A stretch of 64,000 nt of DNA from Pseudomonadales bacterium (lineage in GTDB: Bacteria; Pseudomonadota; Gammaproteobacteria; Pseudomonadales; Azotimanducaceae). The translations under genes and the position numbers were made by a program. Location of the stretch: positions 2,711,737 through 2,775,736 of the forward strand of contig OZ242340.1 of assembly GCA_965208525.1 (NCBI GenBank), written 5' to 3'. Each line of letters opens with the position of its first letter. Positions within the stretch are counted from its first letter, which is position 1. This document shows positions 240 through 54,664 of the stretch, piece after piece. The notes below the pieces were generated by a model that saw only the letters and a list, made by a program, of their open reading frames with translations, was not told the DNA's origin and made no database searches.

Positions 240-363
240 GCGTGTCGCTGACGCTCCCGGCGTCTCGCCGGAATGCGGCAGGCAGCACAAGGTTTTGTGG
301 GGCATGTTGGATTCCCGTTCGACGTGGGCGTAGACTTCGGCAACCGTTCGCCGGAGTCCGACC

Positions 364-1515
364 ATGCCCCGACTGTGCCGCAACGCCCTCTCCGCCGCAA
401 GGGTCCGAACCGCGCCCCCCGGCAGCCACACCGACGGCAACGGGCTCATGCTGCGCGTCCGCAAGAGCGGATCGAGGCAGTGGATCCAGCGCATCACCAT
501 CCACGGAAGGCGCGTCGACCTCGGACTCGGCGGCGCGGAGCTCGTGAGCCTCGCCGACGCCCGGCGGACGGCGGCGGAGAACCGGGCCATCGCCCGCACC
601 GGCGGGGACCCTCGGCGCAGCCGGGTGCCGACCTTCGCGGCGGCGGAGGCGGCCTGCTTCGAGCAGAGGCGGGAGTGCTGGCGCACCGAGAGTCCGGCGA
701 AGACCTGGCGCATCGCGATGGACCGGCACGTGCTGCCGCGGCTCGGCGGGGTTCCGGTGGACCGGGTGGGCAGCGCGGCGGTGCACGAGGTGCTGCGGCC
801 ACTGGCGGTGTCCGGGAGGCACGCGACGGTGAAGGCGGCGGGGTCGGCGATCACGGCGGTGCTGGAGTGGGCGCGGATCGAGGAGTTCCGGGCGGAGGGC
901 TCGCCGGTGGAGACGGTGCGGCGTGCGCTGCCGCGGCGGGAGTCGGGGCCCAGGCACCACGCGGCGCTGCACTGGTCGGAGGTGGGCGCGGCGCTGGACC
1001 GGATCGACGCGACGCGGTGCGCGGCGTCGACGAAGCGGGCGGTCCGGTTCACGGCGCTGACGGCGGCGCGGCAGGTGGAGGTTCGGCGGGCGACGTGGGA
1101 CCAGCTGGACCTGGACGCGGCGGTGTGGGTGCGGCCGGCGGAGTCGATGAAGGCGGGGCGCGCGCACCGGGTTCCGCTGTCGCGGCAGGCGCTGGCGGTG
1201 CTGGCGGAGGCGCGCGAGGGCGCCCGGGGCGGGGGGCTGGTGTTCCCCGGCTCGCGTCCGGGTTCGATGCTGGGGGACCGGGTGATGACGCAGGCGCTGC
1301 GGAACGCGGGGATCGCGGCGACGGGTCACGGGTTCCGCTCGAGCTTCAAGGACTGGGCGCGGGGTCACGAGGTGGACGAGCTGCTGTCGGAGTTCGCGCT
1401 GGCGCACGTGGAGGGCTCGGCGACGGTGGCGGCGTACGCGCGCGACGACCTGCTGGAGCGGCGGCGGCCCATGATGCAGCGCTGGGCGGACGCGGTCGCT
1501 GTCAATGGCAACTGA
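364..1515 (+). CDS. int: P4-type tyrosine recombinase / phage integrase (Arm DNA-binding N-domain plus catalytic domain)
   Basis: N-terminus '...DGNGLMLRVRKSGSRQWIQRITIHGRRVDLGLG' is the P4-integrase arm-binding signature. C-terminal catalytic residues are present: R (TALTAAR), 'HGFRSSF' (H-x-x-R), 'LAH', and Y in 'AAYARDD'. ATG at 364. Confidence 0.85.
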   Translation: MPRLCRNALSAARVRTAPPGSHTDGNGLMLRVRKSGSRQWIQRITIHGRRVDLGLGGAELVSLADARRTAAENRAIARTGGDPRRSRVPTFAAAEAACFEQRRECWRTESPAKTWRIAMDRHVLPRLGGVPVDRVGSAAVHEVLRPLAVSGRHATVKAAGSAITAVLEWARIEEFRAEGSPVETVRRALPRRESGPRHHAALHWSEVGAALDRIDATRCAASTKRAVRFTALTAARQVEVRRATWDQLDLDAAVWVRPAESMKAGRAHRVPLSRQALAVLAEAREGARGGGLVFPGSRPGSMLGDRVMTQALRNAGIAATGHGFRSSFKDWARGHEVDELLSEFALAHVEGSATVAAYARDDLLERRRPMMQRWADAVAVNGN

Positions 1516-19035: not shown

Positions 19036-19156
19036 CCCCTGTCGATGGAACCGCACGGTAGCCGGCACGTGGGCGATGTTCAAACGGGTGGGCCGGAGAC
19101 TTGGCGCGTGGGCTGTTGGCGGTGGGATATGGTGGCGCGTTGTTAGGGGGCAACGT

Positions 19157-32806: not shown

Positions 32807-33598
32807 ATGTCGGACTCGTTCTACGAGGAGCTCTTTGGCGTGCGGGGAAAGGTGGCGTTGGTCACTGGGGGCACGCGGGGCATTGGACTCATGATTGCGG
32901 AGGGGCTGGTGCGGGCCGGGGCGCGGGTCTATGTCGCGTCGCGGAAGGTGGATGCCTGCGTCGAGACCGAGCGTGCCTTGGGACAGTTTGGCCACTGCAC
33001 GGCGATTCCGAGCGACATCGGCAATGTGGCCGGTTGCGAGTTGCTGGCAGGTGAAATCGGTTCGCGAGAGGAGCGATTGCACATCCTGGTCAACAACGCC
33101 GGGTTGACTTGGAGCCTGCCGATTGACGACTTCACCGAGAAGGCTTGGGATCGGGTTGTGGACCTGGATGTCAAAAGCCCGTTCTTCCTCACGCAGAAGC
33201 TCTTGCCGCTGCTTCGGGCTGCGGCAACGCCGGACGAGCGGGCTTCCGTCGTCAACATCACGTCCGTGAACGGCATCAAGCCGAGTGGGCTCATGAACTA
33301 CTCGTACGTCGCCGCCAAGGCGGGGCTAGGGCAGCTTTCGGCGCAGATGGCGCGGGACTTGATGGACGATCACATCAACGTCAACGTCATTGCGCCCGGT
33401 CCGTTCAAGTCGAAGATGACTGCGCCACTTTTCGCCACCGACGAGATGGATCGGCAGATGATCGAGAGTTTTGCGATGAAGCGCTGGGGACGGATGGAGG
33501 ACGCTGCGGGGTTGACGATCTTCCTTTCGTCGCGGGCTGGCTCCTATCTCACAGGCGTCACGCTGCCTTGTGACGGGGGCGCCACGACCATTGGCTGA
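32807..33598 (+). CDS. Short-chain dehydrogenase/reductase (SDR)
   Basis: 'ALVTGGTRGIG' (TGxxxGxG), 'NNAG' and the 'YVAAK' catalytic Y-x-x-x-K. Confidence 0.85.
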   Translation: MSDSFYEELFGVRGKVALVTGGTRGIGLMIAEGLVRAGARVYVASRKVDACVETERALGQFGHCTAIPSDIGNVAGCELLAGEIGSREERLHILVNNAGLTWSLPIDDFTEKAWDRVVDLDVKSPFFLTQKLLPLLRAAATPDERASVVNITSVNGIKPSGLMNYSYVAAKAGLGQLSAQMARDLMDDHINVNVIAPGPFKSKMTAPLFATDEMDRQMIESFAMKRWGRMEDAAGLTIFLSSRAGSYLTGVTLPCDGGATTIG

Positions 33599-34763
33599 CG
33601 ATATCCGTCCTGAAGTTCCGCGTAAGCGGAACCTCCAACCTGCCCGAGGGGCACGCCACGACAGCGCCATTCCGCTGTGGTCGGATGGCGCACCGGGGGC
33701 GCTCGGTGATGGCGACTTGGATCGTCCGCAGATCACGGTGCACCTGCCGGATCGGCATGCCACAGGGGTTGGCGTCATCGTCAACCCTGGCGGCGGCTAT
33801 CGCATCCTTGCCTCGGATTGGGAGGGCTTGCAGGTCGCACGCTGGTTGAACCGGGCCGGCATTGCGGCGTTTGTGCTGCGCTATCGCGTCGGCGAGCGCT
33901 ATCACTCGGACGTTTCCCTGCTCGACGGGCTGCGCGCCGTTCGGCTGGTGCGGGCGCAGGCGGAGGATTTTGGCATCGCCCCCAACCGCATCGGGATGCT
34001 CGGTTTCTCCGCCGGCGGGCACCTGACGGTGGCCGTCGGAACGGCGTGGGACGATGGCGATCCAAGTGCCGAGGATGCGGTGGAGCGTGAATCGAGCAGG
34101 CCGGACTTCCTCGCGCCGGTCTATGCGGTGACCGACGGCATCCAGCGCGGCCGCAAGGCGAACGAGTACACGCCGACGCCCGACCGGGTAAACGCCCACA
34201 CGCCTCCGACCTTCCTCGTGCACACCCACGAAGACGCGATCGTGCCAGGCACGCAGTCCACGCTGTTCTACGACGCCTTGCTGCGGGCCGGTGTGGCGGC
34301 CGAGATGCACATCTACGGCTTTGGCGAGCACGGCACCGGGCTTGGCGTTGGCGATCCGGATTTCCGCGCCTGGCCGCGCCTGTTCACAAACTGGCTCCGA
34401 CGAGGCGGTTTCCTTACCGCTGCAGAGCGGGTCGGCGTGCGCGGCCGAGTCACTTTGGACGGCAAGGCGATGGGCATGGCGTGGATCACCCTCACGCCGG
34501 AAGACCCGCACTCGCCTCCGGCACGAGTGCGAACGTCCCGAGGCGAGGACGGCGCGTTCGAGATTCCGGCGAGCCACGGCATCGTGCCGGGGCCGCATCG
34601 CGTAGAGGTGTTCCACGTCAGCGAGCAGCACCCCCACGTGGCCACAGGCATCTACACGCTGGCCGACGCCAGCCGCTTCGATCTTGGCGTGCGGCGGATT
34701 GGTGCCGATCCGGTGCAAATCGACGTTGCGGGGGCGGACGCGCTGCCCGTCCTCGACGCCTGA
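33570..34763 (+). CDS. Alpha/beta-hydrolase (esterase) with C-terminal carboxypeptidase-regulatory-like beta-sandwich domain
   Basis: 'GFSAGGH' nucleophile elbow and 'HTHEDAIVP'. The tail is 'GRVTLDGKAMGMAWITL...'. Start uncertain because it overlaps the SDR gene's end. Confidence 0.6.
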   Translation: MTGAPRPLADDIRPEVPRKRNLQPARGARHDSAIPLWSDGAPGALGDGDLDRPQITVHLPDRHATGVGVIVNPGGGYRILASDWEGLQVARWLNRAGIAAFVLRYRVGERYHSDVSLLDGLRAVRLVRAQAEDFGIAPNRIGMLGFSAGGHLTVAVGTAWDDGDPSAEDAVERESSRPDFLAPVYAVTDGIQRGRKANEYTPTPDRVNAHTPPTFLVHTHEDAIVPGTQSTLFYDALLRAGVAAEMHIYGFGEHGTGLGVGDPDFRAWPRLFTNWLRRGGFLTAAERVGVRGRVTLDGKAMGMAWITLTPEDPHSPPARVRTSRGEDGAFEIPASHGIVPGPHRVEVFHVSEQHPHVATGIYTLADASRFDLGVRRIGADPVQIDVAGADALPVLDA

Positions 34764-35848: not shown

Positions 35849-36676
35849 ATGAAGATAGGCGTCTCGCTCCCCATTCGAGAACTCAAGGACGACATCGGCG
35901 CGTTGGTGGCATTCGCGCAAGCGGCTGACGAGCTTGGCTATTCCCACCTACGGGTGCCGGATCAGGTGCTGCGCCCGAACAGCGGGCATCTGCACGAGCC
36001 GCTGATCGCCTTGGCCTATATCGCTGCGGCAACGAAGAACATTGAGCTCTGCCCTTCGGTGATCGTGGCGCCGGCGCGGCAGACGGTGCTGCTAGCCAAA
36101 CAGCTCGCAACGCTGGATGCCATGAGCGGCGGGCGGGTGCGGCTTGGCATTGGCGTCGGCGGAAGCGCGCCGGAGTACGAGGCTCTCGGCGAGGATTTCC
36201 ACACGCGCGGCCGGCGCTGTGAAGAGCAGATCGACCTCCTGCGCCGTCTGTGGACGGAAGAGACGGTGGATTTCGAGGGACGCTGGGACGCGGTGCATGG
36301 CGCGGGCCTCGATCCGCTCCCCGTCCAGAGGCCCATTCCCATCTGGATCGGTGCCGCCGGCGTGCCTGTGCCACGCATCCTGCGCCGCATGGGCCGGCAA
36401 GCGGACGGTTGGTTCGTGCTTTGTTCGCCGGAACAGTTTGATGACGTGAAGGCGGGGATCGACGCCGCTGCGGTGGATGCGGGCCGAGACCCAAGCGAAG
36501 TCGGCACGGAAGCTGGCGTCGCGGTGGTGGGTGCGCGCGAGGCGGAGTGGAAGGACCGCGTTCAGGGTTGGCAAGCGAAAGGCGTGGGCCGCATCTGCCT
36601 AAGGACGCTAGGCGGTGGCCTGGACGCCGACGGCCACATCGCCAAGCTGAAAGAGGCCTGGCAAGAAAAGCCATAG
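35849..36676 (+). CDS. LLM-class (luciferase-like) flavin/F420-dependent oxidoreductase
   Basis: 'MKIGVSLPIRELKDDIGALVAFAQAADELGYSHLRVPDQ' is the typical LLM N-terminus; also 'RVRLGIGVGGSAPEYEALG'. Confidence 0.75.
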   Translation: MKIGVSLPIRELKDDIGALVAFAQAADELGYSHLRVPDQVLRPNSGHLHEPLIALAYIAAATKNIELCPSVIVAPARQTVLLAKQLATLDAMSGGRVRLGIGVGGSAPEYEALGEDFHTRGRRCEEQIDLLRRLWTEETVDFEGRWDAVHGAGLDPLPVQRPIPIWIGAAGVPVPRILRRMGRQADGWFVLCSPEQFDDVKAGIDAAAVDAGRDPSEVGTEAGVAVVGAREAEWKDRVQGWQAKGVGRICLRTLGGGLDADGHIAKLKEAWQEKP

Positions 36677-36805
36677 CCCCGGCGACCATGGCTGGCGCCT
36701 AGACGCTGCCTGCCGAGGATGTTGAGGACGCCTGTTCGGTGCGGGTGATGGCGTGAAGGGCCGGCGCGCTGAAGCGGTGCGGATTGAGGGAAGGGAAGGG
36801 GCAAG

Positions 36806-38236
36806 ATGAAGCTGTTGGTTGCGAACCGTGGGGAGATAGCGATCCGCGTGATGCGTGCGGCGGCGGAGCTGGGGATTTCTACGGTTGCGATTGCGCCGAG
36901 GGACGACGCCGGGTCGCTGCACACGGGCAAGGCGGACGAGTTCGTGACGCTTGAGGGGGCGGGCGCGTCGGCCTACCTCGACATCGGGCAGGTGGTGGGG
37001 GCGGCGCGGGAGACGGGCTGCGACGCGGTGCATCCGGGCTACGGCTTCCTGTCGGAGAACGCGGAGCTGGCGCGGGCGTGCTCCGAGGCGGGGCTGACGT
37101 TCGTGGGGCCGCGGGAGGAGACGCTGCGGCTGTTCGGCGACAAGGCGCGCGCCCGGTCGGCGGCGTCGGCGGCGGGGGTGCCGGTGATCCGTGGCATCGA
37201 CCACGCGGTGTCGCTGGACGAGGCGGAGGCGTTCTTCGCGAGCCTGGGCGCTGGCAGCGCGATGATGCTGAAGGCGGTGGGCGGCGGCGGCGGTCGGGGC
37301 TCGCGCATGGTGGAGCGTGCGGAGGAGGTTGCGGAGGCGTTCGAGCGCTGCCGCGCGGAGGCGGAGGCGAGCTTCGGCAACGGCGAGCTGTACGTGGAGG
37401 AGTTCATGCGCCGGGCGCGGCACGTGGAGGTGCAGGTGCTGGGCGACGGCAGCGGCGCGGCCCAGCATCTCGGCGAGCGGGAGTGCAGCGTGCAGCGGCG
37501 TTTCCAGAAGATCGTCGAGGTGGCGCCGGCGCCGGGTCTTGCCGAGGGGGTGCGGGAGGCGGTGATCGAGGCGGCGGTTCGGTTCGCCTCGGGCGTGGAC
37601 TACCTGAGCGCCGGCACGTTCGAGTTTCTGGTGGACGTTTCGGCGGACGCCTCGGGGGGCGGGTTCGCGTTCATCGAGACGAACGCGCGGCTGCAGGTGG
37701 AGCACACGGTGACGGAGGAGGTCACCGGGGTCGACGTCGTGGCCTCGCAGCTCCGGCTGGCGCAGGGCGCGACGATTTCCGACCTGGGGCTGGACGCGCC
37801 GCCTGCCCTGCGGGGCTACGCGATCCAGTCGCGGGTGTGCATGGAGTCGGTTCGCGAAGACGGTTCCATCGTTCCGACCGGCGGGGTGCTGACGGCGTAC
37901 GAGGCGCCGAGCGGCCCGGGTGTGCGCACGGACGGCTTCGGCTACGGCGGCTACGAGACGAGCCTGAACTACGACCCGCTGCTGGCGAAGGTGATCGCGC
38001 ACTCGCCGTCGCCGGACTTCGGCGACGCCGTCGCCCGCTCGCTGCGGGCGCTGGCGGAGTTCCGGGTCGAGGGGGTGGAGACGAACATCGCCTTCCTCGA
38101 GAGCATCCTGCGCCACCCGGACTTCGCCGCCGCCGAGGTGCACACCCGCTTCGTCGACGAGAACATGGCCAGCCTCGCCGCCGCCGAGCAAGGCGCACGC
38201 TTCGTCACCCCGCCCGGATTCGAGCCGCAGGCGGCA
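36806..38236 (+). repeat. Direct repeat unit A (1.43 kb; identical bar 1 mismatch seen to 40296-41726)
   Basis: Compared by eye across the region. Overlapping spurious ORFs 37078..38340 vs 40568..41830 and 37722..38198 vs 41212..41688 are identical or differ by 1 aa. One substitution was seen (NYDP/NYDS). Confidence 0.9.
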
Positions 38237-40273
38237 GACGGATTCGCCGGTGCCAGAGTCGAGGATGCCCGCGACCCCCTTGCACTTTTCCTGCACGACA
38301 CCCGCGTCAAGTCCGAACAGGACGACGAGGACGAAGCTGAAAGCGGCCCGGTCGTCGTGCCGGCCCCGGTTCCCGGCGAGGTGCGCGCCGTGCATGTCCT
38401 CGCCGGAGACGAGGTGCTGACGGGCCAACCGCTCGCAACCATTCACTCGCTGGAGATCGACCACATCGTTCGCGCTGACGAGGGCGGTGCCGTGGAAACC
38501 GTCGCCGTGGACGCCGGCAATGTCGTCCGCGCCGGCGACTCCTTGCTGCAAATCGTCAAGTCCGACATGGCCGGCCGTTGGGCCGAACCTGCTGCGGAGG
38601 CAGACTTCGACACCCGCCGCTCCGACCTGGCCCTCGTGGACCAGCGCCGCACCTACATCGAAGACGACTTCCGCGCCGAACGCATCGGTCGACGCCACGC
38701 CAAGGAGCAGCGCAGCCCGCGCGAGAACATCGAACACCTCATGGACGGCACCTTCCGCGAGTACGGTCCCCTCGTCACCGCGGCAAGCTGGCAGAAGCAG
38801 GAATGGCTGCGGGAGACGACCCAGGCGGATGGCCTCGTCATGGGCATCGGCAGCATCAACGGCGATCTCTTCGATGCCGACGCCTCCCGCGCGGTGGTGG
38901 TTCACTACGACTACATGGTGGTGGCGGGCACCCAGGGCGGGCGCGGCCACTACAAGCAGGATCGCATCTACGAACTGGCCGGACGCTTCCGGTTGCCCCT
39001 GATCCTCTTTGCCGAGGGCGGCGGCGGTCGACCCGGCATCAGCGGCGGCGAACGGGCAGAAGCCGTGGACATCGCCATCGAGGCGGGGCTGCGCAAGCTT
39101 GGCGAGAAGGCGCCGCCCGGTTCCCGCGCCAGCGCCGTGGACGTGGCCGGTCGCGGCGGCGGGGGCGTGCCGGTGGACTCCTACACCTTCACCAAGCTCT
39201 GCGAGCTGAGCGGCCTGGTGCCCTTGGTGGGCGTCAACTCCGGGCGCTGCTTCGCCGGCAACACGGTGATGCTGGCGTCCTGCGATGTCATCATCGCGGC
39301 GGAGAACTCCACCATTGGCCTTGGTGGCCCTGCCATGATCGAAGGCGGGGGCCTCGGCATCTACACGCCGGAAGAAGTGGGTCCCATGTCCTTCCAGGTG
39401 CCAAACGGTGTCGTGGACATCCTCGTCAAGGACGACGAGGCGGCCATCGAGACGGCGAAAAAATACCTTTCCTACTTCCAGGGCGCGGTGGATAGCTGGG
39501 AGACGCCGGACCAGCGCCGCCTCCGCGCGATCATTCCGGAAGACCGCAGCGCGCTCTACGACATGCGCGAGCTCATCGCCACTTTGGCGGACGAAGACTC
39601 CATCCTCGAAATCCGCGAAGCCTTCGGCGTCGGGATCATCACCGCCTTCATCCGCATCGAAGGCGAGCCGATGGGCCTCATCGCCAATAACCCCGCGCAC
39701 CTATCTGGCGCCATCGACAGCGATGCCGCCGACAAGGCGGCGCGCTTCCTGCAACTCTGCGACACCTTCGACATCCCGGTGCTGTCGCTGATGGACTGTC
39801 CCGGCCTCATGCCGGGGCCGGAGTACGAGCAGGCAGCACTGCTTCGCCACTCAGGCCGCATGTTCGTCACCGGCGCCAACATGACCACGCCCATGTTCGG
39901 CGTCGTGGTGCGCAAGGCCTATGGAATGGGCGTGCGAGCGATGTGCGGCGGCAGCTCGCTGGAACCGTTCTTCACCGTCGCCTGGCCCACGGCAGAGTTC
40001 GCCGACATGACCATCGACGGCAGAGTCAATCTCATGTACGGCGAGGAACTGGCCGCGATTGAGGATGCAGCGGAACGAGAAGCGGTGCACCAACGCCTGA
40101 TGGATGCCCACGTCGATCGAGTGCGCGCGGTGAACGCGGGCGGCACCAACTACGGCATCGACGACGTCATCGACCCGGCCGACACCCGAGCGTGGATCGC
40201 GCAGGGGCTTAGGAGCGTGCCGAAACCCCCGCCGCGGGAGGAAAAGAAGCGACCCAATGTGGACACGTGGTAG
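36806..40273 (+). CDS. Single-chain biotin-dependent acyl-CoA carboxylase paralogue 1 (BC - degenerate BCCP - carboxyltransferase); BCCP lacks the biotin-acceptor lysine
   Basis: ATP-grasp biotin carboxylase (aa 1-450), a biotinyl-like domain with 'ATIHSLEIDHIV' instead of AMKM, and a PccB/AccD-like CT domain ('VVVHYDYMVVAGTQGG', '...RKAYGMGVRAM'). 1155 aa. Confidence 0.85.
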   Translation: MKLLVANRGEIAIRVMRAAAELGISTVAIAPRDDAGSLHTGKADEFVTLEGAGASAYLDIGQVVGAARETGCDAVHPGYGFLSENAELARACSEAGLTFVGPREETLRLFGDKARARSAASAAGVPVIRGIDHAVSLDEAEAFFASLGAGSAMMLKAVGGGGGRGSRMVERAEEVAEAFERCRAEAEASFGNGELYVEEFMRRARHVEVQVLGDGSGAAQHLGERECSVQRRFQKIVEVAPAPGLAEGVREAVIEAAVRFASGVDYLSAGTFEFLVDVSADASGGGFAFIETNARLQVEHTVTEEVTGVDVVASQLRLAQGATISDLGLDAPPALRGYAIQSRVCMESVREDGSIVPTGGVLTAYEAPSGPGVRTDGFGYGGYETSLNYDPLLAKVIAHSPSPDFGDAVARSLRALAEFRVEGVETNIAFLESILRHPDFAAAEVHTRFVDENMASLAAAEQGARFVTPPGFEPQAADGFAGARVEDARDPLALFLHDTRVKSEQDDEDEAESGPVVVPAPVPGEVRAVHVLAGDEVLTGQPLATIHSLEIDHIVRADEGGAVETVAVDAGNVVRAGDSLLQIVKSDMAGRWAEPAAEADFDTRRSDLALVDQRRTYIEDDFRAERIGRRHAKEQRSPRENIEHLMDGTFREYGPLVTAASWQKQEWLRETTQADGLVMGIGSINGDLFDADASRAVVVHYDYMVVAGTQGGRGHYKQDRIYELAGRFRLPLILFAEGGGGRPGISGGERAEAVDIAIEAGLRKLGEKAPPGSRASAVDVAGRGGGGVPVDSYTFTKLCELSGLVPLVGVNSGRCFAGNTVMLASCDVIIAAENSTIGLGGPAMIEGGGLGIYTPEEVGPMSFQVPNGVVDILVKDDEAAIETAKKYLSYFQGAVDSWETPDQRRLRAIIPEDRSALYDMRELIATLADEDSILEIREAFGVGIITAFIRIEGEPMGLIANNPAHLSGAIDSDAADKAARFLQLCDTFDIPVLSLMDCPGLMPGPEYEQAALLRHSGRMFVTGANMTTPMFGVVVRKAYGMGVRAMCGGSSLEPFFTVAWPTAEFADMTIDGRVNLMYGEELAAIEDAAEREAVHQRLMDAHVDRVRAVNAGGTNYGIDDVIDPADTRAWIAQGLRSVPKPPPREEKKRPNVDTW

Positions 40274-40295
40274 GGAAGCAGGGGGAGAGGCAAAG

Positions 40296-41726
40296 ATGAA
40301 GCTGTTGGTTGCGAACCGTGGGGAGATAGCGATCCGCGTGATGCGTGCGGCGGCGGAGCTGGGGATTTCTACGGTTGCGATTGCGCCGAGGGACGACGCC
40401 GGGTCGCTGCACACGGGCAAGGCGGACGAGTTCGTGACGCTTGAGGGGGCGGGCGCGTCGGCCTACCTCGACATCGGGCAGGTGGTGGGGGCGGCGCGGG
40501 AGACGGGCTGCGACGCGGTGCATCCGGGCTACGGCTTCCTGTCGGAGAACGCGGAGCTGGCGCGGGCGTGCTCCGAGGCGGGGCTGACGTTCGTGGGGCC
40601 GCGGGAGGAGACGCTGCGGCTGTTCGGCGACAAGGCGCGCGCCCGGTCGGCGGCGTCGGCGGCGGGGGTGCCGGTGATCCGTGGCATCGACCACGCGGTG
40701 TCGCTGGACGAGGCGGAGGCGTTCTTCGCGAGCCTGGGCGCTGGCAGCGCGATGATGCTGAAGGCGGTGGGCGGCGGCGGCGGTCGGGGCTCGCGCATGG
40801 TGGAGCGTGCGGAGGAGGTTGCGGAGGCGTTCGAGCGCTGCCGCGCGGAGGCGGAGGCGAGCTTCGGCAACGGCGAGCTGTACGTGGAGGAGTTCATGCG
40901 CCGGGCGCGGCACGTGGAGGTGCAGGTGCTGGGCGACGGCAGCGGCGCGGCCCAGCATCTCGGCGAGCGGGAGTGCAGCGTGCAGCGGCGTTTCCAGAAG
41001 ATCGTCGAGGTGGCGCCGGCGCCGGGTCTTGCCGAGGGGGTGCGGGAGGCGGTGATCGAGGCGGCGGTTCGGTTCGCCTCGGGCGTGGACTACCTGAGCG
41101 CCGGCACGTTCGAGTTTCTGGTGGACGTTTCGGCGGACGCCTCGGGGGGCGGGTTCGCGTTCATCGAGACGAACGCGCGGCTGCAGGTGGAGCACACGGT
41201 GACGGAGGAGGTCACCGGGGTCGACGTCGTGGCCTCGCAGCTCCGGCTGGCGCAGGGCGCGACGATTTCCGACCTGGGGCTGGACGCGCCGCCTGCCCTG
41301 CGGGGCTACGCGATCCAGTCGCGGGTGTGCATGGAGTCGGTTCGCGAAGACGGTTCCATCGTTCCGACCGGCGGGGTGCTGACGGCGTACGAGGCGCCGA
41401 GCGGCCCGGGTGTGCGCACGGACGGCTTCGGCTACGGCGGCTACGAGACGAGCCTGAACTACGACTCGCTGCTGGCGAAGGTGATCGCGCACTCGCCGTC
41501 GCCGGACTTCGGCGACGCCGTCGCCCGCTCGCTGCGGGCGCTGGCGGAGTTCCGGGTCGAGGGGGTGGAGACGAACATCGCCTTCCTCGAGAGCATCCTG
41601 CGCCACCCGGACTTCGCCGCCGCCGAGGTGCACACCCGCTTCGTCGACGAGAACATGGCCAGCCTCGCCGCCGCCGAGCAAGGCGCACGCTTCGTCACCC
41701 CGCCCGGATTCGAGCCGCAGGCGGCG
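40296..41726 (+). repeat. Direct repeat unit B of the 1.43-kb BC-domain repeat
   Basis: See unit A. Confidence 0.9.
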
Positions 41727-43517
41727 GCAGCGCAGCAGGCCGAGCAGGCGGTGGGGCCAGAGGGGTCCGTGGGCCTGGTTGCCCCCATGCAAGGAACCAT
41801 CGTCGAGATTGGCGTTGCCATTGGCGATGAGGTGCGCGTTGGTCAAGCCGTGGCCGTCGTTGAGGCAATGAAGCTGCAGCACGACATCCGGGCGGACCGC
41901 AACGGTGTTGTCTGCGCCGTCTCCATGGCGGAAGGCGACGTGGTGCGCGAGGGCTTTCCCATCGTCTTCCTGCACGAGTCCGATGTGGAAGGCGGCGCCC
42001 TCGAGGGCGATGCAGGAATGGACCTCGATCTCCTCCGGGGCGACATGCAGGAGGTCAACGAACTCATCGACCAAACCCTCGATGCCGCCAAGGCAGAAGC
42101 GGTGGCTGGGCTGCGCGAGAGCAACCGGCGCACTCCTAGGGAGAATCTCGACGATTTCCTGGACGAAGGCTCCTTCCGCGAGTTCGGTCCCCCAGCGGCC
42201 GGCTCCGCCGCCGGCGGCACCATCATGGGCTTCGGCAGCGTCAATGCCGACCTCGTCGGAGACGAGCGCAGCCGCGTGGCGGTGGTACACAGCAACTACC
42301 CAACCGCCGCCTACACCCACGGTCACTATCGTCAGGAGCAGATTCACGAGATGGCCAGGGACTGGCGCGTCCCTGTGGTGCTCTTCTCCGAAGGGGAGGG
42401 TGGCCCGCACGGCAACGTCGGCGGCGTCGGCATGGACGCCAGCGTCTTCACCGATTTCGCGAGGCTGTCGGGGCTGGTGCCGCTCATCGGCGTCAACACC
42501 GGCGACTGCTTCGCCGGCAATGCCGCCCTCCTCGCCTGCTGCGACGTCATCATCGCCACGGAGGACTCCACCATCGGCATGAACGGCCCGGCCGTCGTCG
42601 AGTCGAGCGGATTGGGCACGCACAGTGCCGCGGAACTCGGCGGCATGTCGTTCCAGGCAGCCAACGGCAGCGTCGACATCGTGGTTGAGGACGACGCGGC
42701 CGCGGTGGCCACCGCCAAGCAATATCTCTCTTACTTTCAGGGGCCTGTGTCGGACTGGGAAGCGCCAGACCAGCGCCGGATGCGGCATGTCATCCCGGAA
42801 GACCGCGTGCGCGCCTACGACATGCGCGAAATCATCGAGACCTTGGCCGACGAGGGCTCGGTGCTGGAGATCCGCAAAGACTTCGGCATCGGCGTCATCA
42901 CCTCCTTCATCCGCGTGGAAGGTCAGCCGATGGGCGTCGTGGCCAACAACCCGGCGCACCTCGCCGGCGCCGTGGACAGCCCAGGGGCAGACAACGGCGC
43001 CCGCTTCTTCCAGCTCTGCGACGCCTTCGACATCCCGGTGGTGGTGTTCATGGACTGTCCGGGGATCATGGTGGGCCCAGACCACGAGCGCACGGCCCTG
43101 GTCCGCCACGCCGTGCGCCTGTTCAACATTGGCGCCAACTGCACGGCGCCCATGTTCGGCATCATGGTGCGCAAGGCATACGGGCTCGGCGTGCAAGCCA
43201 TGATCGGCGGCGCCTCCTCGGTACCGTTCCTGACGGTGGCATGGCCCACGGCAGAATTCGCTGGCATGAACATCGACGGTGCCGTCAAGCTCTCCGCCCG
43301 CCGCGAACTGGCCGCCATCGAAGATGCCGAAGAGCGCAAGGACGCCTACGAACGACGCGTCGCCCAAGGCTATGAGTCGGCAAGAGCCGTCAACTCCGGC
43401 GCAAGATACGTGATCGACCCAGCCGACACCCGCGCCTTCATCGCTCGAGGCATGAAGAGCCTCCCACCAACCCCACCCCGCACGAAGAAGAAGCGCCCCT
43501 ATGTTGACACGTGGTAA
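40296..43517 (+). CDS. Single-chain biotin-dependent acyl-CoA carboxylase paralogue 2 (BC-BCCP-CT) with intact biotinylation motif
   Basis: Same BC domain as paralogue 1. BCCP has 'VVEAMKLQHDI'. The CT domain is ~55-60% identical to paralogue 1 and lacks its ~40-aa insertion. Start taken at the MKLLVAN ATG with a purine-rich RBS, not the upstream 40257 ATG that overlaps paralogue 1. Confidence 0.85.
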   Translation: MKLLVANRGEIAIRVMRAAAELGISTVAIAPRDDAGSLHTGKADEFVTLEGAGASAYLDIGQVVGAARETGCDAVHPGYGFLSENAELARACSEAGLTFVGPREETLRLFGDKARARSAASAAGVPVIRGIDHAVSLDEAEAFFASLGAGSAMMLKAVGGGGGRGSRMVERAEEVAEAFERCRAEAEASFGNGELYVEEFMRRARHVEVQVLGDGSGAAQHLGERECSVQRRFQKIVEVAPAPGLAEGVREAVIEAAVRFASGVDYLSAGTFEFLVDVSADASGGGFAFIETNARLQVEHTVTEEVTGVDVVASQLRLAQGATISDLGLDAPPALRGYAIQSRVCMESVREDGSIVPTGGVLTAYEAPSGPGVRTDGFGYGGYETSLNYDSLLAKVIAHSPSPDFGDAVARSLRALAEFRVEGVETNIAFLESILRHPDFAAAEVHTRFVDENMASLAAAEQGARFVTPPGFEPQAAAAQQAEQAVGPEGSVGLVAPMQGTIVEIGVAIGDEVRVGQAVAVVEAMKLQHDIRADRNGVVCAVSMAEGDVVREGFPIVFLHESDVEGGALEGDAGMDLDLLRGDMQEVNELIDQTLDAAKAEAVAGLRESNRRTPRENLDDFLDEGSFREFGPPAAGSAAGGTIMGFGSVNADLVGDERSRVAVVHSNYPTAAYTHGHYRQEQIHEMARDWRVPVVLFSEGEGGPHGNVGGVGMDASVFTDFARLSGLVPLIGVNTGDCFAGNAALLACCDVIIATEDSTIGMNGPAVVESSGLGTHSAAELGGMSFQAANGSVDIVVEDDAAAVATAKQYLSYFQGPVSDWEAPDQRRMRHVIPEDRVRAYDMREIIETLADEGSVLEIRKDFGIGVITSFIRVEGQPMGVVANNPAHLAGAVDSPGADNGARFFQLCDAFDIPVVVFMDCPGIMVGPDHERTALVRHAVRLFNIGANCTAPMFGIMVRKAYGLGVQAMIGGASSVPFLTVAWPTAEFAGMNIDGAVKLSARRELAAIEDAEERKDAYERRVAQGYESARAVNSGARYVIDPADTRAFIARGMKSLPPTPPRTKKKRPYVDTW

Positions 43518-43562
43518 GCCTCGGAACGCTTCAAGGCCACCCTGACGCCTTCCAACGCAACA

Positions 43563-43791
43563 CGTTGATAAACCAACAATGTGGCTCGAAGCCGAGCCAA
43601 CACCAACGTGCGGGCCGGATGGCGCGGTCCCACACGCCTTTCGGAGCGAGGGCCTTTTCACGCTCCTCCCGCCGAAGGCGAAGCAACCAAGGGCCGGAAG
43701 CTACAACCAGCCGTCTCCCCGCGAGACAGGCCTGGCAGACGGCGTGGATGGCTGTCTGTTTCCTGCCGTCCCTAGCCCTGCGTCCCTCCTG
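43563..43791 (+). repeat. Non-coding repeat element, copy 2 (short form), starting 'cgttgataaacc'
   Basis: Aligns with 13345-13661 except for a ~90-bp deletion. Lies in the 340-bp gap between carboxylase-2 and the first CoA-transferase gene. Confidence 0.7.
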
Positions 43792-43856: not shown

Positions 43857-44996
43857 ATGAGTGAGGAAGCCGCGCTGGCGGGCATTCGGGTGGTGGATGC
43901 CGCCGGGAGCATCGCCACGGCCTATTGCGGCAAGCTGTTTGCGGATCATGGCGCGGCTGTGGTCAATGCCGAGCCCCCCGAAGGCTTCGCCACGCGGCGG
44001 GAAGAACCGTTTCTGCCCGGCGCCCTGGCTCCGGAAAACAGCGCCCTCCACGCTTGGCTCTCCACCAACAAGGCGAGCGCAGTGGTCGAGTCGGTCGGCG
44101 ACATCCGCGACTTGGCGCGGGGGGCGCAGGTGGTGCTTGACGACGGGCGTTTCGATTGCGAGCACTTCTCGGCGCTCGCGCCCAACGTCGTGGTTTCTAC
44201 GGTGACCTGGTTCGGACGCACCGGGCCATATGCGGATTATCAAGGCACGGATGGCGTGGTGCAGTCGCTCATCGGCATGGTGCGCGGCATCGGTCTCGAG
44301 GAGGGCCCGCCCATTCTTCCCGCTGGCTGTCAGGCGCAGATCGTCGGCGGTCTCGCCGCCTACATCGGCACCCTCGGCCAGGTGATCGCCCGCGAGATCG
44401 GCAATGCCCGAGGCCCAGTCCGGCTCGACACGAGCATCTTCGAGGCCAATCTCTGCTTCACGGAGGTCGGTGGCGTGGGCGGCCACCGCAGCGGTCGCCG
44501 CGTCCGACGCATGGGCGTGAACCGCTACCCGCCCACCTATCCGCTCGGCATCTATCCCTGCCGTGATGGCTGGCTCGGCGTCACCGCGCTGACGCCATCG
44601 CAGTGGAAGAGCTTCTGTGCCTTGCTCGACATGCAGGAGTTTGCCGACGTGCCGCAATACCAGAGCGCGATCGGCCGCTTGCAGGATGCGGAGATGCTCG
44701 ACCCGCTCATCCACGAGCGGGTGCGGGAGCAGAGCGCGACGGAGCTCTTCAACCGCGGGCAGGGCGCGCGCATCCCGCTGGCGTTGGTGCCGACGATGGA
44801 GCAACTGTTCACGGTGGACCAGTATGTCGCCCGACGGGCGTTCGATGAGGTGCGGCCGCCGGGGCAGGAGGGCTTCGTGGCTCCGGTAACGCCGTTCCGC
44901 CTGTTCCGTACCCCTGCCACTCGCGGCGGCGACGTGGCCCCCCTCGGGTCGATGCCTCCGACGCCTGTCGAACCACCTCGGAGCGTGCGCGCATGA
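43857..44996 (+). CDS. Family III CoA-transferase (CaiB/BaiF family)
   Basis: 'GIRVVDAAGSIATAYCGKLFADHGAAVV' is a family-III N-terminus, at ~380 aa. Confidence 0.8.
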   Translation: MSEEAALAGIRVVDAAGSIATAYCGKLFADHGAAVVNAEPPEGFATRREEPFLPGALAPENSALHAWLSTNKASAVVESVGDIRDLARGAQVVLDDGRFDCEHFSALAPNVVVSTVTWFGRTGPYADYQGTDGVVQSLIGMVRGIGLEEGPPILPAGCQAQIVGGLAAYIGTLGQVIAREIGNARGPVRLDTSIFEANLCFTEVGGVGGHRSGRRVRRMGVNRYPPTYPLGIYPCRDGWLGVTALTPSQWKSFCALLDMQEFADVPQYQSAIGRLQDAEMLDPLIHERVREQSATELFNRGQGARIPLALVPTMEQLFTVDQYVARRAFDEVRPPGQEGFVAPVTPFRLFRTPATRGGDVAPLGSMPPTPVEPPRSVRA

Positions 44997-46216
44997 GCCG
45001 CCCCGGCCTGCTCGAAGGCGTGCGCGTCGTGGATCTCTCGATGGGCTGGGCCGGCCCCTTGGCGGCGCGGCATCTCGCCGACATGGGCGCTGATGTCATC
45101 AAGGTGGAAGGTTGCGTCCGCTTCGACTGGTGGCGTGGCTGGGAGGCCACCCAGGAGTGGATCGATGAGGGTGGCGCCGAGATGTCGCCGGCGTTCAACA
45201 TGGTGAACCGCAACAAGCGCGACCTGACGCTGGACCTCTCAACTTCGGAAGGGGCGGACCTGCTGTTGCGCTTGGTGGCCATCTCCGACGTCGTGGTGGA
45301 GAACTACTCCGCCGGCGTGCTGCCGAAGCTTGGCCTCGACTACCCCGTGCTGGCGAAGGCCAACCCCGAAGTCGTGATGATCTCGATGCCCGCTTTCGGC
45401 AGCAACGGCCCATGGCAAGGCTATCGAGCCTACGGTTCAACGGTCGAGCAGGCATCCGGCTTGCCGCATCAGTCCGGCGAGGAGTCCATGCCGCCCACCA
45501 TGACTCACGTCGCGCTTGGCGATTCGGTGGGTGGCCTCAACGGCGCGGCGGCGCTGCTCACGGCACTCCGGGCCCGGCGCAGAACCGGCAAGGGCCAGCA
45601 CCTCGACCTGTCGCAGTCGGAATGCCTGTTTCCGCTCGGCATCAAAGGCATCCTGACGCAGTCTGTCACCGGCTCGCCGCCGCAGCGACTCGGAAATCGC
45701 TCCCTCGAACACGCGCCGCACGGGGTCTATCCCTGCGCCGGCGACGACGAGTGGATCGTCATCCAGGTTCGCTCGGAAGCGGAGTGGAAGGCGTTCGAGG
45801 CGGCGAGTGGCATTGGCGGATTTGGCGATGCTGCGGATCGGCTGGCACGGCGGGAGGAACTCGACGACGCCGTGCGAGCTTTCACCTCGACGCAGGTTGT
45901 CGAGCTCTTGATGCCAGAGTTGCAGGAAGCGGGCGTCCCGGCGGCACGCTTGGCCGGGGGGCTGGAACTCACCACGGACCCGCACCTGGCGGCGCGGGGC
46001 TTTTGGAAGATGATGCAGCGCGACTATGTCGGCGAGCTGCCGCACCCGGCGCCGCCCTATCGCGTTGGCGAAGCGCCGTTCGACATCGACCGTCCGGCGC
46101 CGACCCTCGGCCAACACAACGTTGAGGTGCTGTCGGAAGTGCTGGGCCTCGCGCCCGACGAGATCGCGGCGTTGGCGGAGAAGGGCGTCATCGGCACCAA
46201 GCCGCGACTGCCATGA
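44993..46216 (+). CDS. Family III CoA-transferase (CaiB/BaiF family)
   Basis: 'GVRVVDLSMGWAGPLAARHLADMGADVIKVE'. 4-bp overlap with the upstream gene (translational coupling). Confidence 0.85.
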   Translation: MSRPGLLEGVRVVDLSMGWAGPLAARHLADMGADVIKVEGCVRFDWWRGWEATQEWIDEGGAEMSPAFNMVNRNKRDLTLDLSTSEGADLLLRLVAISDVVVENYSAGVLPKLGLDYPVLAKANPEVVMISMPAFGSNGPWQGYRAYGSTVEQASGLPHQSGEESMPPTMTHVALGDSVGGLNGAAALLTALRARRRTGKGQHLDLSQSECLFPLGIKGILTQSVTGSPPQRLGNRSLEHAPHGVYPCAGDDEWIVIQVRSEAEWKAFEAASGIGGFGDAADRLARREELDDAVRAFTSTQVVELLMPELQEAGVPAARLAGGLELTTDPHLAARGFWKMMQRDYVGELPHPAPPYRVGEAPFDIDRPAPTLGQHNVEVLSEVLGLAPDEIAALAEKGVIGTKPRLP

Positions 46217-54590: not shown

Positions 54591-54664
54591 GGCTGGATGG
54601 CAGAGTGGTTATGCAGCGGACTGCAACTCCGTGTACGCCGGTTCGATTCCGACTCCAGCCTCCA
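54591..54664 (+). tRNA. tRNA-Cys (anticodon GCA), 74 nt including encoded CCA, discriminator U
   Basis: Position-by-position similar to E. coli tRNA-Cys. Perfect 7-bp acceptor (GGCTGGA/TCCAGCC), anticodon arm CGGA-CTGCAAC-TCCG and T-loop TTCGATT. One C48.A62 mismatch in the T-stem. Confidence 0.8.

What the first reader, a model, noticed from the sequence alone, without database searches (positions are those of the whole stretch)
36806..38110. The duplicated BC segment uses a foreign-looking G-ending codon style, unlike the rest of the locus
Within the repeat Ala is almost always GCG, Thr ACG, Arg CGG, Ser TCG, Pro CCG, Gly often GGG and Glu always GAG, with essentially no A/T-ending codons. 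In the same genes downstream of the repeat, and in aroC, pepN and gapA, Ala is mostly GCC, Thr ACC and Arg CGC; GAA, GAT, GGT, ATT and TAT are common. The last ~120 bp of the repeat drift back to the host style. This compositional island coincides with the conversion tract. It suggests the BC module was horizontally acquired from a very high-GC3 donor and then copied into both paralogues.
Basis: seen in the sequence. Interest (0 to 1): 0.6.

Follow-up and report, generated by a model that had tools for sequence, protein, structure and literature searches.

The report
Odd codon style marks a gene-conversion tract
The first 1.4 kb of two neighbouring carboxylase genes are kept identical by repeated copying between them, and this stretch has a G-ending codon style that most likely arose in place, since the segment's own family tree gives no sign of foreign origin.

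Summary
Codons 1-380 of both tandem genes have G3 0.59, C3 0.33, A3 0.01. Host usage predicts 137±8 G-ending codons and 224 are seen (z=+10.8). The rest of both genes has G3 0.30 and C3 0.53.

The island lies inside an identical tract, 36803-38235 = 40293-41725, with one mismatch. The tract covers the biotin-carboxylase (BC) module of two long-chain acyl-CoA carboxylase (LCC)-type paralogues.

The foreign-donor reading is not supported.
- The tandem pair occurs throughout a clade of sponge-associated Pseudomonadales metagenome-assembled genomes (MAGs).
- In all 13 genomes where both copies are visible, the two BC modules resemble each other (77-100% nt) far more than the rest of the genes do (40-55%), with the same boundary. 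This is long-term gene conversion.
- The BC protein tree follows the species tree.
- GC1 and GC2 are unchanged.
- No closer homologue and no G-style host genome was found.

Composition shifts in the tract go with A/B identity. GC3 rises in three of the four lineages with homogenised copies, and not in those with diverged copies. AT-ward synonymous changes are depleted in the tract (p=0.0014).

Best reading: GC-biased gene conversion (gBGC)-like rewriting of synonymous sites in place, with an unexplained preference for G. Integrase and transposase-associated genes of the same genomes share that codon style (RSCU r 0.93-0.95).

The parts
36803..38235 (+). Copy 1 of the identical tract: the last 3 nt before the ATG plus codons 1-476 of gene A (the whole BC module)
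   Evidence: Register comparison at offset 3490 finds one mismatch, at 37976, in 1433 nt. Pfam places Biotin_carb_N, CPSase_L_D2 and Biotin_carb_C at residues 2-451.
40293..41725 (+). Copy 2 of the identical tract (BC module of gene B)
36806..38083 (+). G-ending, A/T3-poor codon segment, copy 1 (codons 1-426 by maximum-likelihood change point; strongest in codons 1-350)
   Evidence: G/(G+C) at third positions is 0.63 before the change point and 0.35 after it. Sliding windows are and codon tables.
40296..41573 (+). G-ending codon segment, copy 2
38084..38235 (+). Tail of the tract, copy 1 (its twin is 41574-41725): still almost free of A/T-ending codons (GC3 0.94-1.00) but C-ending like the host
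   Evidence: The A3 change point is at codon 461 (38189).
36806..40273 (+). Gene A, 1155 aa, BC-BCCP-CT single-chain acyl-CoA carboxylase paralogue. Its carrier domain lacks the biotinyl lysine (SLEIDH in place of EAMKLQH).
   Evidence: Pfam and the alignment of the carrier motif.
40296..43517 (+). Gene B, 1073 aa, BC-BCCP-CT carboxylase with an intact EAMKLQH biotinylation motif. The mechanical ORF starts at 40257, but the ATG homologous to that of gene A is 40296.
   Evidence: Pfam. It matches PDB 4rcn, long-chain acyl-CoA carboxylase, end to end with E=1e-253..
364..1515 (+). Comparator, not part of the locus: a tyrosine integrase gene with the same codon style (G3 0.61, C3 0.33, A3 0.02), inside a 72-79% GC stretch at about 300-3900
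   Evidence: RSCU correlation with the tract is r=0.93.

Best explanation
The G-ending island is the conversion tract of an old duplication. Two tandem LCC-type carboxylase genes, A and B, diverged long ago; their CT domains form separate deep clades. Their BC modules are repeatedly homogenised by intrachromosomal gene conversion. The tract runs from the start codon to the point, near residue 476, where A/B homology collapses in the linker.

The BC module is native to this Pseudomonadales clade. Its unusual codon style was written in place at synonymous sites by a bias that accompanies homogenisation. AT-ward changes are filtered out, as under GC-biased gene conversion. In this lineage, and separately in L013, G is favoured over C on the coding strand.

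**Shown:** the identity tract, concerted evolution across the clade with a fixed boundary, native phylogeny, a purely synonymous shift in the window lineage, the link between A/B identity and the composition shift, and the deficit of AT-ward changes.

**Inferred:** that conversion itself causes the bias. The reason for G over C is not known.
For: 1. **Concerted evolution.** In all 13 genomes with both copies visible, the A and B BC modules are 77-100% identical in nucleotides and the rest of the genes 40-55%. The break falls at about nt 1350-1430 in every case. In the BC tree A and B pair by genome. In the CT tree they form two deep clades.
2. **Native origin.** The tandem clade is monophyletic in 100% of bootstraps, window group + L008 in 74%, window group + L013 in 0%. 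BC identity between the window and its relatives (74-77%) is close to that among the relatives (76-80%). GC1/GC2 of the tract (0.742/0.511) equals that of relatives with ordinary style, for example L007 at 0.737-0.753/0.495-0.508. The best hits outside the window's own group are 77% or lower and lie in the same clade. For L013 the best is 73%. Plasmids give at most 69% nt. No genome that holds a homologue has a G-style background.
3. **Link with homogenisation.** A/B identity correlates with the GC3 excess of the tract: rho 0.73 over 11 genomes, 0.77 over 6 lineages. For the GC2 excess rho is 0.84 and 0.94, and for the shift in G/C skew 0.75 and 0.83. L013 is the extreme case, with tract GC3 0.84 against 0.50 in the rest of the same genes. 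The L008, L040, L020 and L059 group has tract GC3 0.93-1.00 against about 0.87. Lineages with 77-85% A/B identity (L007, L009, L012, L010) show little or no shift.
4. **Substitution pattern.** Among polarised synonymous singletons in the window's own group of genomes, AT-ward versus GC-neutral changes number 15:23 in the tract and 100:46 in the rest (Fisher p=0.0014). G>C 11 against C>G 12 looks roughly stationary. In L005, whose copies have drifted to 89%, G is being lost: 28 losses against 6 gains.
5. **Long residence in these hosts.** The same style is held by integrase and transposase-associated genes in these C-style genomes. The integrase family has at least two members on each of the L003 and L005 chromosomes. 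This argues for maintenance in place rather than a fading donor signature.
Against: - GC-biased conversion as usually described does not distinguish G from C. The L008-type lineages raise GC3 without any G excess.
- L060 has 99.6% identical copies with no GC3 rise, and its tract is more C-skewed than the rest of the genes. The direction of the shift is therefore lineage-specific, and identity only dates the last conversion.
- Changes specific to the window lineage at codon positions 1 and 2 are not GC-ward (W>S 8, S>W 14-20).
- Synonymous sites between lineages are nearly saturated, so the route to the present style cannot be traced.
- The stationarity test has little power. Host-like rates would predict about 11:7 for G>C against C>G, and 11:12 was seen.
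- The correlations rest on few independent lineages.
- The 100% A/B identities come from short-read contigs, where repeat copies can be merged. Long-read chromosomes give 96%, 94.5% and 89%.
- An unsampled donor inside the clade cannot be excluded.
Confidence: 0.55

Rival explanations
1. Import from an unsampled relative inside the same clade whose genome, or a mobile element in it, uses G-ending codons. Homologous recombination replaced one BC module in the ancestor of the window's group of genomes, and gene conversion then spread it to the other paralogue.
For: - The tract's codon usage is nearly identical to that of mobile-element genes in these genomes (RSCU r 0.93-0.95).
- The window lineage has about twice as many lineage-specific amino-acid changes in BC as L008, L007 or L009 (31-36 against 12-37), whereas its CT count is no higher than theirs (11-13 against 14-17).
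- At fourfold sites where L007, L008 and L009 all have C, the window has G at 41-44%.
- Bootstrap support for the exact position of the window's group is moderate (74%).
Against: - No such donor exists among the genomes found to carry homologues, and none of them has a G-style background.
- GC1 and GC2 are unchanged.
- A separate donor would be needed for L013, whose best hit anywhere is 73%, and for the L008 and L060 types.
- GCG:GCC ratios of 5-7:1 are more extreme than any genome-wide codon usage I know of (my own knowledge, not tested here).
- Integrase genes keep this style although they appear long resident and diversified in C-style genomes.
Confidence: 0.2
2. Selection on synonymous sites of the BC segment, for example on mRNA structure, translation speed or expression balance between the two paralogues. 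Conversion would merely copy the selected sequence.
For: In the window lineage the shift is confined to third positions, and the G excess looks roughly stationary where the copies are identical.
Against: - Close relatives encode the same domain in the same operon with ordinary codons (L007, L009, L012), or with C-ending GC3 of 0.98 (L008).
- GC1 and GC2 excesses also track homogenisation across lineages.
- Unrelated integrase and transposase-associated genes share the style.
- No Rfam family or other RNA signal lies in the region.
Confidence: 0.1
3. Acquisition of the BC module from a distant, very high-GC3 donor lineage, followed by copying into both paralogues.
For: The codon usage is atypical (z=+10.8) and resembles that of an integrase inside a 72-79% GC stretch of the same window.
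Against: - The BC protein tree places the module inside its own clade with 100% support against all outside groups.
- Its divergence equals that among the relatives.
- All relatives carry the module at the same place in the same genes.
- There are no mobility genes, tRNA gene or flanking repeats at the locus.
Confidence: 0.04
4. Assembly artefact: the two copies were merged or duplicated by the assembler, so the repeat and its properties are not real.
For: Exact A/B identity is seen only in short-read NODE contigs (L004, L006, L013) and in the window.
Against: - Long-read chromosomes show the same tandem pair with 89-96% A/B identity and the same codon style (L003 G3 0.55-0.56).
- The window's copies differ at one site and sit in different flanks.
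- The codon style does not depend on how identical the copies are.
Confidence: 0.02

Closest known systems
Concerted evolution of bacterial paralogues by intrachromosomal gene conversion (tufA/tufB, rRNA operons; my own knowledge of the literature)
   Same: Paralogues are more alike within a genome than orthologues are between genomes. The homogenised tract has sharp edges and diverged flanks, and the pattern recurs over long evolutionary time.
   Different: Here only one domain of a three-domain fused gene is homogenised. The boundary is the same across a whole clade. The tract also carries its own synonymous codon style.
GC-biased gene conversion: the bacterial hypothesis (Lassalle et al. 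2015, PMC4450053) and GC3 enrichment of converting paralogues in eukaryotes (e.g. PMC2720389)
   Same: GC3, and more weakly GC1 and GC2, is raised in the converted stretch compared with the rest of the same gene. AT-ward substitutions are in deficit.
   Different: The window lineage and L013 favour G over C on the coding strand, which the standard model does not predict. L060 shows no GC3 rise.
Horizontally acquired compositional islands and their amelioration (Lawrence and Ochman model; my own knowledge)
   Same: A local departure from host codon usage that resembles the style of integrase genes in the same genome.
   Different: The phylogeny is native, the module is present in all relatives, there is no mobility context, GC1 and GC2 are unchanged, and there is no clear decay towards host style where the copies stay identical.
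Long-chain acyl-CoA carboxylase, single-chain BC-BCCP-CT enzyme (PDB 4rcn)
   Same: Gene B matches the solved chain end to end (residues 2-1051 against 4-1071, E=1e-253). Both genes have the same domain order.
   Different: Here there are two tandem paralogues, and one of them has lost the biotinyl lysine in every genome examined. The substrate is unknown.

Membership tests
Horizontally transferred compositional island | Codon usage or base composition departs significantly from the host genome | tested here: met
   G3 is 224 of 380 codons against 137±8 expected (z=+10.8). A3 is 2 against 38 expected.
Horizontally transferred compositional island | Phylogeny conflicts with the species tree, or the closest relatives lie in another lineage | tested here: not met
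   The BC tree follows the CT/species tree. Clade monophyly is 100% and window group + L008 is 74%. Identity to relatives is as expected. No closer outside hit was found.
Horizontally transferred compositional island | Patchy presence among close relatives, with mobility genes, a tRNA gene or flanking repeats at the borders | tested here: not met
   The segment is the N-terminal domain of genes present in all relatives. The only tRNA gene is at 54591. There are no other repeats, and the only integrase gene found in the window is at 364-1515, 35 kb away.
Horizontally transferred compositional island | Donor composition also visible at codon positions 1 and 2 | tested here: not met
   GC1/GC2 is 0.742/0.511 in the window against 0.737-0.753/0.495-0.508 in L007, which has ordinary style.
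Concerted evolution by gene conversion | Paralogues within a genome are more alike than orthologues between genomes, in several lineages | tested here: met
   A and B BC modules pair by genome in the BC tree and form two deep clades in the CT tree. A/B nucleotide identity is 77-100% in the tract against 40-55% beyond it.
Concerted evolution by gene conversion | A discrete tract with sharp boundaries | tested here: met
   36803-38235 is identical apart from one site, and the sequences differ at most positions from 38236 on. The same break at about nt 1350-1430 is seen in all genomes.
GC-biased gene conversion | GC content, especially GC3, is raised in the converted tract relative to flanking sequence under the same expression | tested here: met
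   GC3 in the tract against the rest of the gene is 0.94 vs 0.85 in the window, 0.98 vs 0.88 in L008 and 0.84 vs 0.50 in L013. There is no rise in L060.
GC-biased gene conversion | Deficit of GC-to-AT substitutions compared with GC-neutral ones | tested here: met
   15:23 in the tract against 100:46 in the rest, Fisher p=0.0014.
GC-biased gene conversion | The bias treats G and C alike | tested here: not met
   Third-position skew is +0.28 in the window tract and +0.25 in L013, against -0.27 and -0.08 in the rest of the genes.
GC-biased gene conversion | Direct transmission bias at heteroduplex mismatches | not testable with these tools
   This needs conversion assays or population frequency spectra.
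Long-chain acyl-CoA carboxylase (LCC) family | Single chain with BC, BCCP and CT domains, matching the solved LCC along its length | tested here: met
   Pfam domains. Gene B matches 4rcn_A with E=1e-253 over residues 2-1051.
Long-chain acyl-CoA carboxylase (LCC) family | Biotinyl-lysine motif (E)AMK(M/L) in the carrier domain | tested here: inconclusive
   The motif is present in gene B (EAMKLQH). In gene A it is replaced by SLE(I/L)xH in all 10 A orthologues aligned.

The most novel reading that the evidence does not exclude
In this clade of sponge-associated Pseudomonadales, a recombination-linked substitution bias favours G on the coding strand as well as removing A and T. It stamps one and the same codon style on gene-conversion tracts and on integrase and transposase-associated genes. 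This would be an asymmetric form of biased gene conversion, or of repeat-associated mutagenesis, that has not been described in bacteria. The LCC gene pair would be an internally controlled natural experiment for it, because the same ORF, strand and transcript carry two codon styles.
Probability: 0.2. Interest if true: 0.75.

Novelty: new variant of a known kind. Interest (0 to 1): 0.45.

Why it matters
Atypical codon usage is routinely read as a sign of horizontal transfer. Here a strong, sharply bounded codon island is most likely produced in place by gene conversion between paralogues, so it would be a false positive for composition-based detection of transfer.

Whether GC-biased gene conversion operates in bacteria is still debated. 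The usual confounders are expression level, strand and gene function. This locus removes them, because one reading frame carries two styles. In L013 GC3 steps from 0.50 to 0.84 exactly at the tract boundary.

The unexplained preference for G, shared with mobile-element genes, hints at a strand- or sense-specific component of recombination-associated bias. That could be tested in the complete chromosomes now available for this clade.

Tried and rejected
- **Overlapping genes.** The long antisense ORF (36608-39700, in register with gene A) and the alternative-frame ORFs (37078-38340, 40568-41830) follow from the scarcity of A- and T-ending codons. The antisense ORF also extends beyond the tract (frame arithmetic).
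- **G-quadruplex or R-loop motifs.** There are no G3+N1-7 motifs in the tract. G-runs are merely proportional to G content.
- **Restriction-site or palindrome avoidance.** GGCC is about halved. No other palindrome is clearly depleted, and the few zero counts are no more than the tract's short length would give.
- **Replication-strand orientation as the cause of G versus C.** Flanking-gene skews suggest the operon is on the leading strand in the window's group. They are ambiguous for L008, L013, L059 and L060. In L012 two neighbouring G-style mobile-element genes lie on opposite strands, so the bias follows the coding sense. Left unresolved.
- **Synonymous 'memory' test for vertical descent.** Fourfold sites are near saturation between lineages even in the CT domain (z 1.5-3), so the test has no power.
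- **Donor search.** Protein database, one genome per GTDB species (14), JGI metagenomes (28), plasmids (52) and three extra contigs of the best non-group hits (67-70). No donor was found. Caveat: the protein search returned neither the window's nor L013's own full-length proteins, so it is not exhaustive.
- **RNA families, promoters and terminators** in the region: nothing relevant.
- **First bootstrap attempt** timed out and was redone with my own neighbour-joining code.
Full report
**What is at the coordinates.** The window carries two adjacent genes on the + strand, A (36806-40273, 1155 aa) and B (40296-43517, 1073 aa). Each has biotin carboxylase (BC), biotinyl carrier (BCCP) and carboxyltransferase (CT) domains in one chain. 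Gene B matches the solved long-chain acyl-CoA carboxylase 4rcn end to end (E=1e-253). A register comparison at offset 3490 shows that 36803-38235 and 40293-41725 are identical apart from one base (37976, codon 391). Beyond 38235 the sequences differ at most positions. The tract therefore covers the last 3 nt before the ATG and codons 1-476, which is the whole BC module and a few linker residues.

In 50-codon windows the first ~350 codons of both genes have G3 0.54-0.72, C3 0.26-0.42 and A3 0.00-0.02. The rest of both genes has G3 0.14-0.42, C3 0.36-0.72 and A3 mostly 0.02-0.20. Over codons 1-380 the counts are Ala GCG 50 / GCC 10, Thr ACG 13 / ACC 2, Ser TCG 13, Pro CCG 10 / CCC 0, Val GTG 27 / GTC 4, Leu CTG 21 / CTC 3 and Glu GAG 36 / GAA 1. 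Drawing the same protein from the codon usage of the other genes of the window gives 137±8 G-ending codons against 224 observed (z=+10.8), and 38 A-ending codons against 2. Single change-point fits put the G-to-C switch at codon 426 (38084 / 41574). They put the return of A/T-ending codons at codon 461 (38189 / 41679), 15 codons before the end of the identical tract.

Gly is mostly GGC. The host background uses GCG and GCC about equally, and ACG and ACC about equally; the C-ending preference is strongest in the rest of A and B. The repeat ends at 38235, not 38110.

**Where the sequence comes from.** A scan of one genome per GTDB species with the BC segment found 38 loci. The closest are metagenome-assembled genomes labelled Pseudomonadales, Gammaproteobacteria or Candidatus Azotimanducaceae. 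Isolate names such as SB0662 and IRC4 suggest sponge microbiomes, which is my reading of the labels. L001 shares the upstream genes (BD-FAE hydrolase, luciferase-like monooxygenase) with the window. The window's own genome was not in any collection.

**The tandem pair and its homogenised BC module are old.** The A-B pair is present in L003-L010, L012, L013, L059 and L060, and in part in L015, L020, L042 and L043. In the CT tree A and B form two deep clades. In the BC tree A and B pair by genome. Within every genome the two BC modules are 77-100% identical in nucleotides, and the sequence after about nt 1350-1430 is only 40-55% identical. This is concerted evolution by recurrent gene conversion. 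It is confined to the BC module, and its boundary has stayed put across the clade.

**The foreign-donor idea fails the phylogenetic test.**
- With 300 bootstrap replicates of a neighbour-joining tree on BC residues 1-470, the clade that carries the tandem pair is monophyletic against all outside groups in 100% of replicates. The outside groups are Dehalococcoidia, Rhodobacteraceae, Bryobacterales, Burkholderiales and Caulobacter.
- The window's own group of genomes (window, L001, L003-L006) is sister to L008 in 74% of replicates, and never groups with L013, the other G-rich lineage.
- BC amino-acid identity between the window and L007, L008, L009 or L012 is 69-77%. Among those relatives it is 75-80%, or 85-87% for the close pair L009/L012. 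The CT values are 86-88% for both sets. So the BC module evolves faster than CT everywhere in the clade, not only in the window's lineage.
- GC1/GC2 of the tract (0.742/0.511) matches relatives with ordinary codon style, so the shift is synonymous.
- No closer homologue exists in the protein database (best outside the group 75% at 85% coverage), in GTDB representatives or JGI metagenomes (best 77%), or in plasmids (at most 69% nt).
- None of the genomes that carry a homologue has a high-GC3, G-skewed background.
- For L013 the best hit anywhere is 73%.
- One caveat applies. The protein search did not return the full-length proteins of the window or of L013, so it is not exhaustive.

**The composition shift goes with homogenisation.**
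- *Window group* (A/B identity 89-100%). The tract has GC3 0.88-0.94 against about 0.85 in the rest, and third-position skew +0.06 to +0.28 against about -0.27.
- *L013* (100%). Tract GC3 is 0.84 against 0.50, and skew +0.25 against -0.08.
- *L008, L040, L020 and L059* (94-97% where both copies are seen). Tract GC3 is 0.93-1.00 against about 0.87, with no change in skew.
- *L007, L009, L012 and L010* (77-85%). Little or no shift.

A/B identity correlates with the GC3 excess: Spearman rho 0.73 over 11 genomes and 0.77 over 6 lineages. For the GC2 excess rho is 0.84 and 0.94, and for the skew shift 0.75 and 0.83. GC1 and GC2 excesses of BC over CT are also largest in the homogenised lineages.

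Inside the window's group I polarised synonymous singletons with L005 as outgroup. AT-ward changes are depleted relative to GC-neutral ones, 15:23 in the tract against 100:46 in the rest (Fisher p=0.0014). G>C (11) and C>G (12) are balanced. In L005, whose copies have drifted to 89%, G is being lost, with 28 losses against 6 gains, and its G excess is confined to the first ~180 codons.

L060 is an exception. Its copies are 99.6% identical, yet GC3 is not raised and the tract is more C-skewed than the rest. Identity only dates the last conversion, and the direction of the shift differs between lineages.

**The same style marks mobile-element genes.** The only other ORF of the window with this style is a tyrosine integrase at 364-1515 (G3 0.61, C3 0.33, A3 0.02). 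It sits in a 72-79% GC stretch at about 300-3900. A search of about 300 kb of clade DNA for ORFs with GC3 of at least 0.88 and skew of at least +0.15 found only:
- that integrase;
- two integrases in L058;
- a DDE_Tnp_1-associated protein in L012;
- a further integrase fragment in L012, on the opposite strand from the previous gene.

RSCU vectors of the tract correlate at r=0.93-0.95 with these genes, 0.79 with host genes and 0.55 with the rest of A and B. The window's integrase belongs to a large family, 75-91% identical, with at least two members on each of the L003 and L005 chromosomes. These genes keep the style although they sit in C-style genomes. In L012 they do so on both strands, so the bias follows the coding sense rather than the replication strand.

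**Mechanism, with its status.** Four points are shown: the identity tract, clade-wide concerted evolution with a fixed boundary, native phylogeny, and a synonymous shift that tracks homogenisation and shows a deficit of AT-ward changes. One point is inferred: that conversion, through biased repair of heteroduplex mismatches, drives third positions to G or C, as proposed for bacteria by Lassalle et al. 2015 (PMC4450053, found but not read). Two questions remain open. Why is G favoured over C here and in L013 but not in the L008 type? And why do mobile-element genes share the style? At fourfold sites where L007, L008 and L009 all have C, the window has G at 41-44%, L013 at 47-54% and L008 at 10-13%. 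The replacement is therefore directional and arose twice. Synonymous sites between lineages are nearly saturated, however, so the route cannot be reconstructed.

**Rivals.**
- Import from an unsampled in-clade donor with G-ending usage, followed by conversion, cannot be excluded. It would fit the mobile-gene resemblance and the roughly twofold excess of lineage-specific amino-acid changes in the window's BC. It needs several unseen donors and leaves GC1/GC2 unexplained.
- Selection on synonymous sites is hard to square with close relatives that use ordinary or C-ending codons for the same domain.
- A distant donor is contradicted by the trees.
- Assembly artefacts could inflate the 100% identities of short-read contigs. 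They cannot create the style, which long-read chromosomes also show (L003: G3 0.55-0.56).

**Limits of the analysis.**
- Gene calls for background statistics came from a simple GC3/G1-based ORF filter of my own.
- The lineage counts are small, and genomes within the window's group are not independent.
- Polarisation is by parsimony.

**Verdict.** The finding is a clear example of domain-limited concerted evolution with a composition signature like that of GC-biased conversion, plus an unexplained G preference shared with mobile-element genes. Interest is moderate.

Noticed in passing
window 300-3900 (integrase 364-1515, +): A 3.6-kb stretch of 72-79% GC against about 66% elsewhere. It starts with a tyrosine integrase (Arm-DNA-bind_3, Phage_int_M, Phage_integrase). 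The rest (1515-3900) has only ORFs with no Pfam match. ARAGORN found no tRNA gene next to it. The integrase family is large (75-91% identical homologues), with at least two members on each of the L003 and L005 chromosomes.
   Followed up: partly
window 38330-38560 (gene A carrier domain) and 41780-41970 (gene B): Paralogue A has SLE(I/L)xH where paralogue B and all single-copy outgroups have the biotinylation motif EAMK(L/M)xH. The loss of the biotinyl lysine is conserved in all 10 A orthologues aligned. This suggests a heteromeric enzyme in which only B carries biotin.
   Followed up: partly
L013:10001-16721: In a lower-GC relative (rest-of-gene GC3 about 0.50) the two BC modules are identical and have GC3 0.84 with a G excess. 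GC3 steps by 0.35 exactly at the tract boundary. The best protein hit for this BC anywhere is 73%.
   Followed up: partly
all A/B loci (L003-L013): Across the clade the BC module is more diverged between species (about 70-80% aa) than the CT domain (81-89%). This reverses the usual order of conservation for biotin carboxylases.
   Followed up: no
L060:4514-11142: A relative with 99.6% identical BC copies in which GC3 is not raised, yet the tract is markedly more C-skewed (about -0.45) than the rest of the genes (about -0.2). It is a counter-example to a simple GC-ward rule.
   Followed up: no
L012:2771-5415: Two mobile-element genes with the G-ending style lie on opposite strands about 3-5 kb upstream of the carboxylase pair. 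One has DruA and DDE_Tnp_1_assoc matches, the other is a Phage_integrase fragment.
   Followed up: partly
window 40257-40296: The mechanical ORF for gene B starts at ATG 40257 and overlaps the end of gene A. The ATG homologous to gene A's start, preceded by a similar purine-rich stretch, is at 40296 and is the likelier start.
   Followed up: partly
window 36608-39700 (-) and 40209-43661 (-): Antisense ORFs of 1030 and 1150 codons run opposite genes A and B. The first is in exact codon register with gene A, so it is open simply because the sense codons TTA, CTA and TCA are absent. I read both as by-products of codon usage rather than genes.
   Followed up: partly
window 43857-46216: Two family III CoA-transferase genes follow the carboxylase pair. 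A luciferase-like monooxygenase (35849-36676) and a BD-FAE/alpha-beta hydrolase (33570-34763) precede it, and L001 has a matching hydrolase and monooxygenase upstream. The pathway and substrate are unknown.
   Followed up: no
window 18737-20689 (+): An ORF picked by my GC3 filter has positive third-position skew (+0.14 to +0.24) but ordinary GC3 (0.77) and no Pfam match. A competing ORF lies on the other strand (18043-19503), so the frame call here is doubtful.
   Followed up: no
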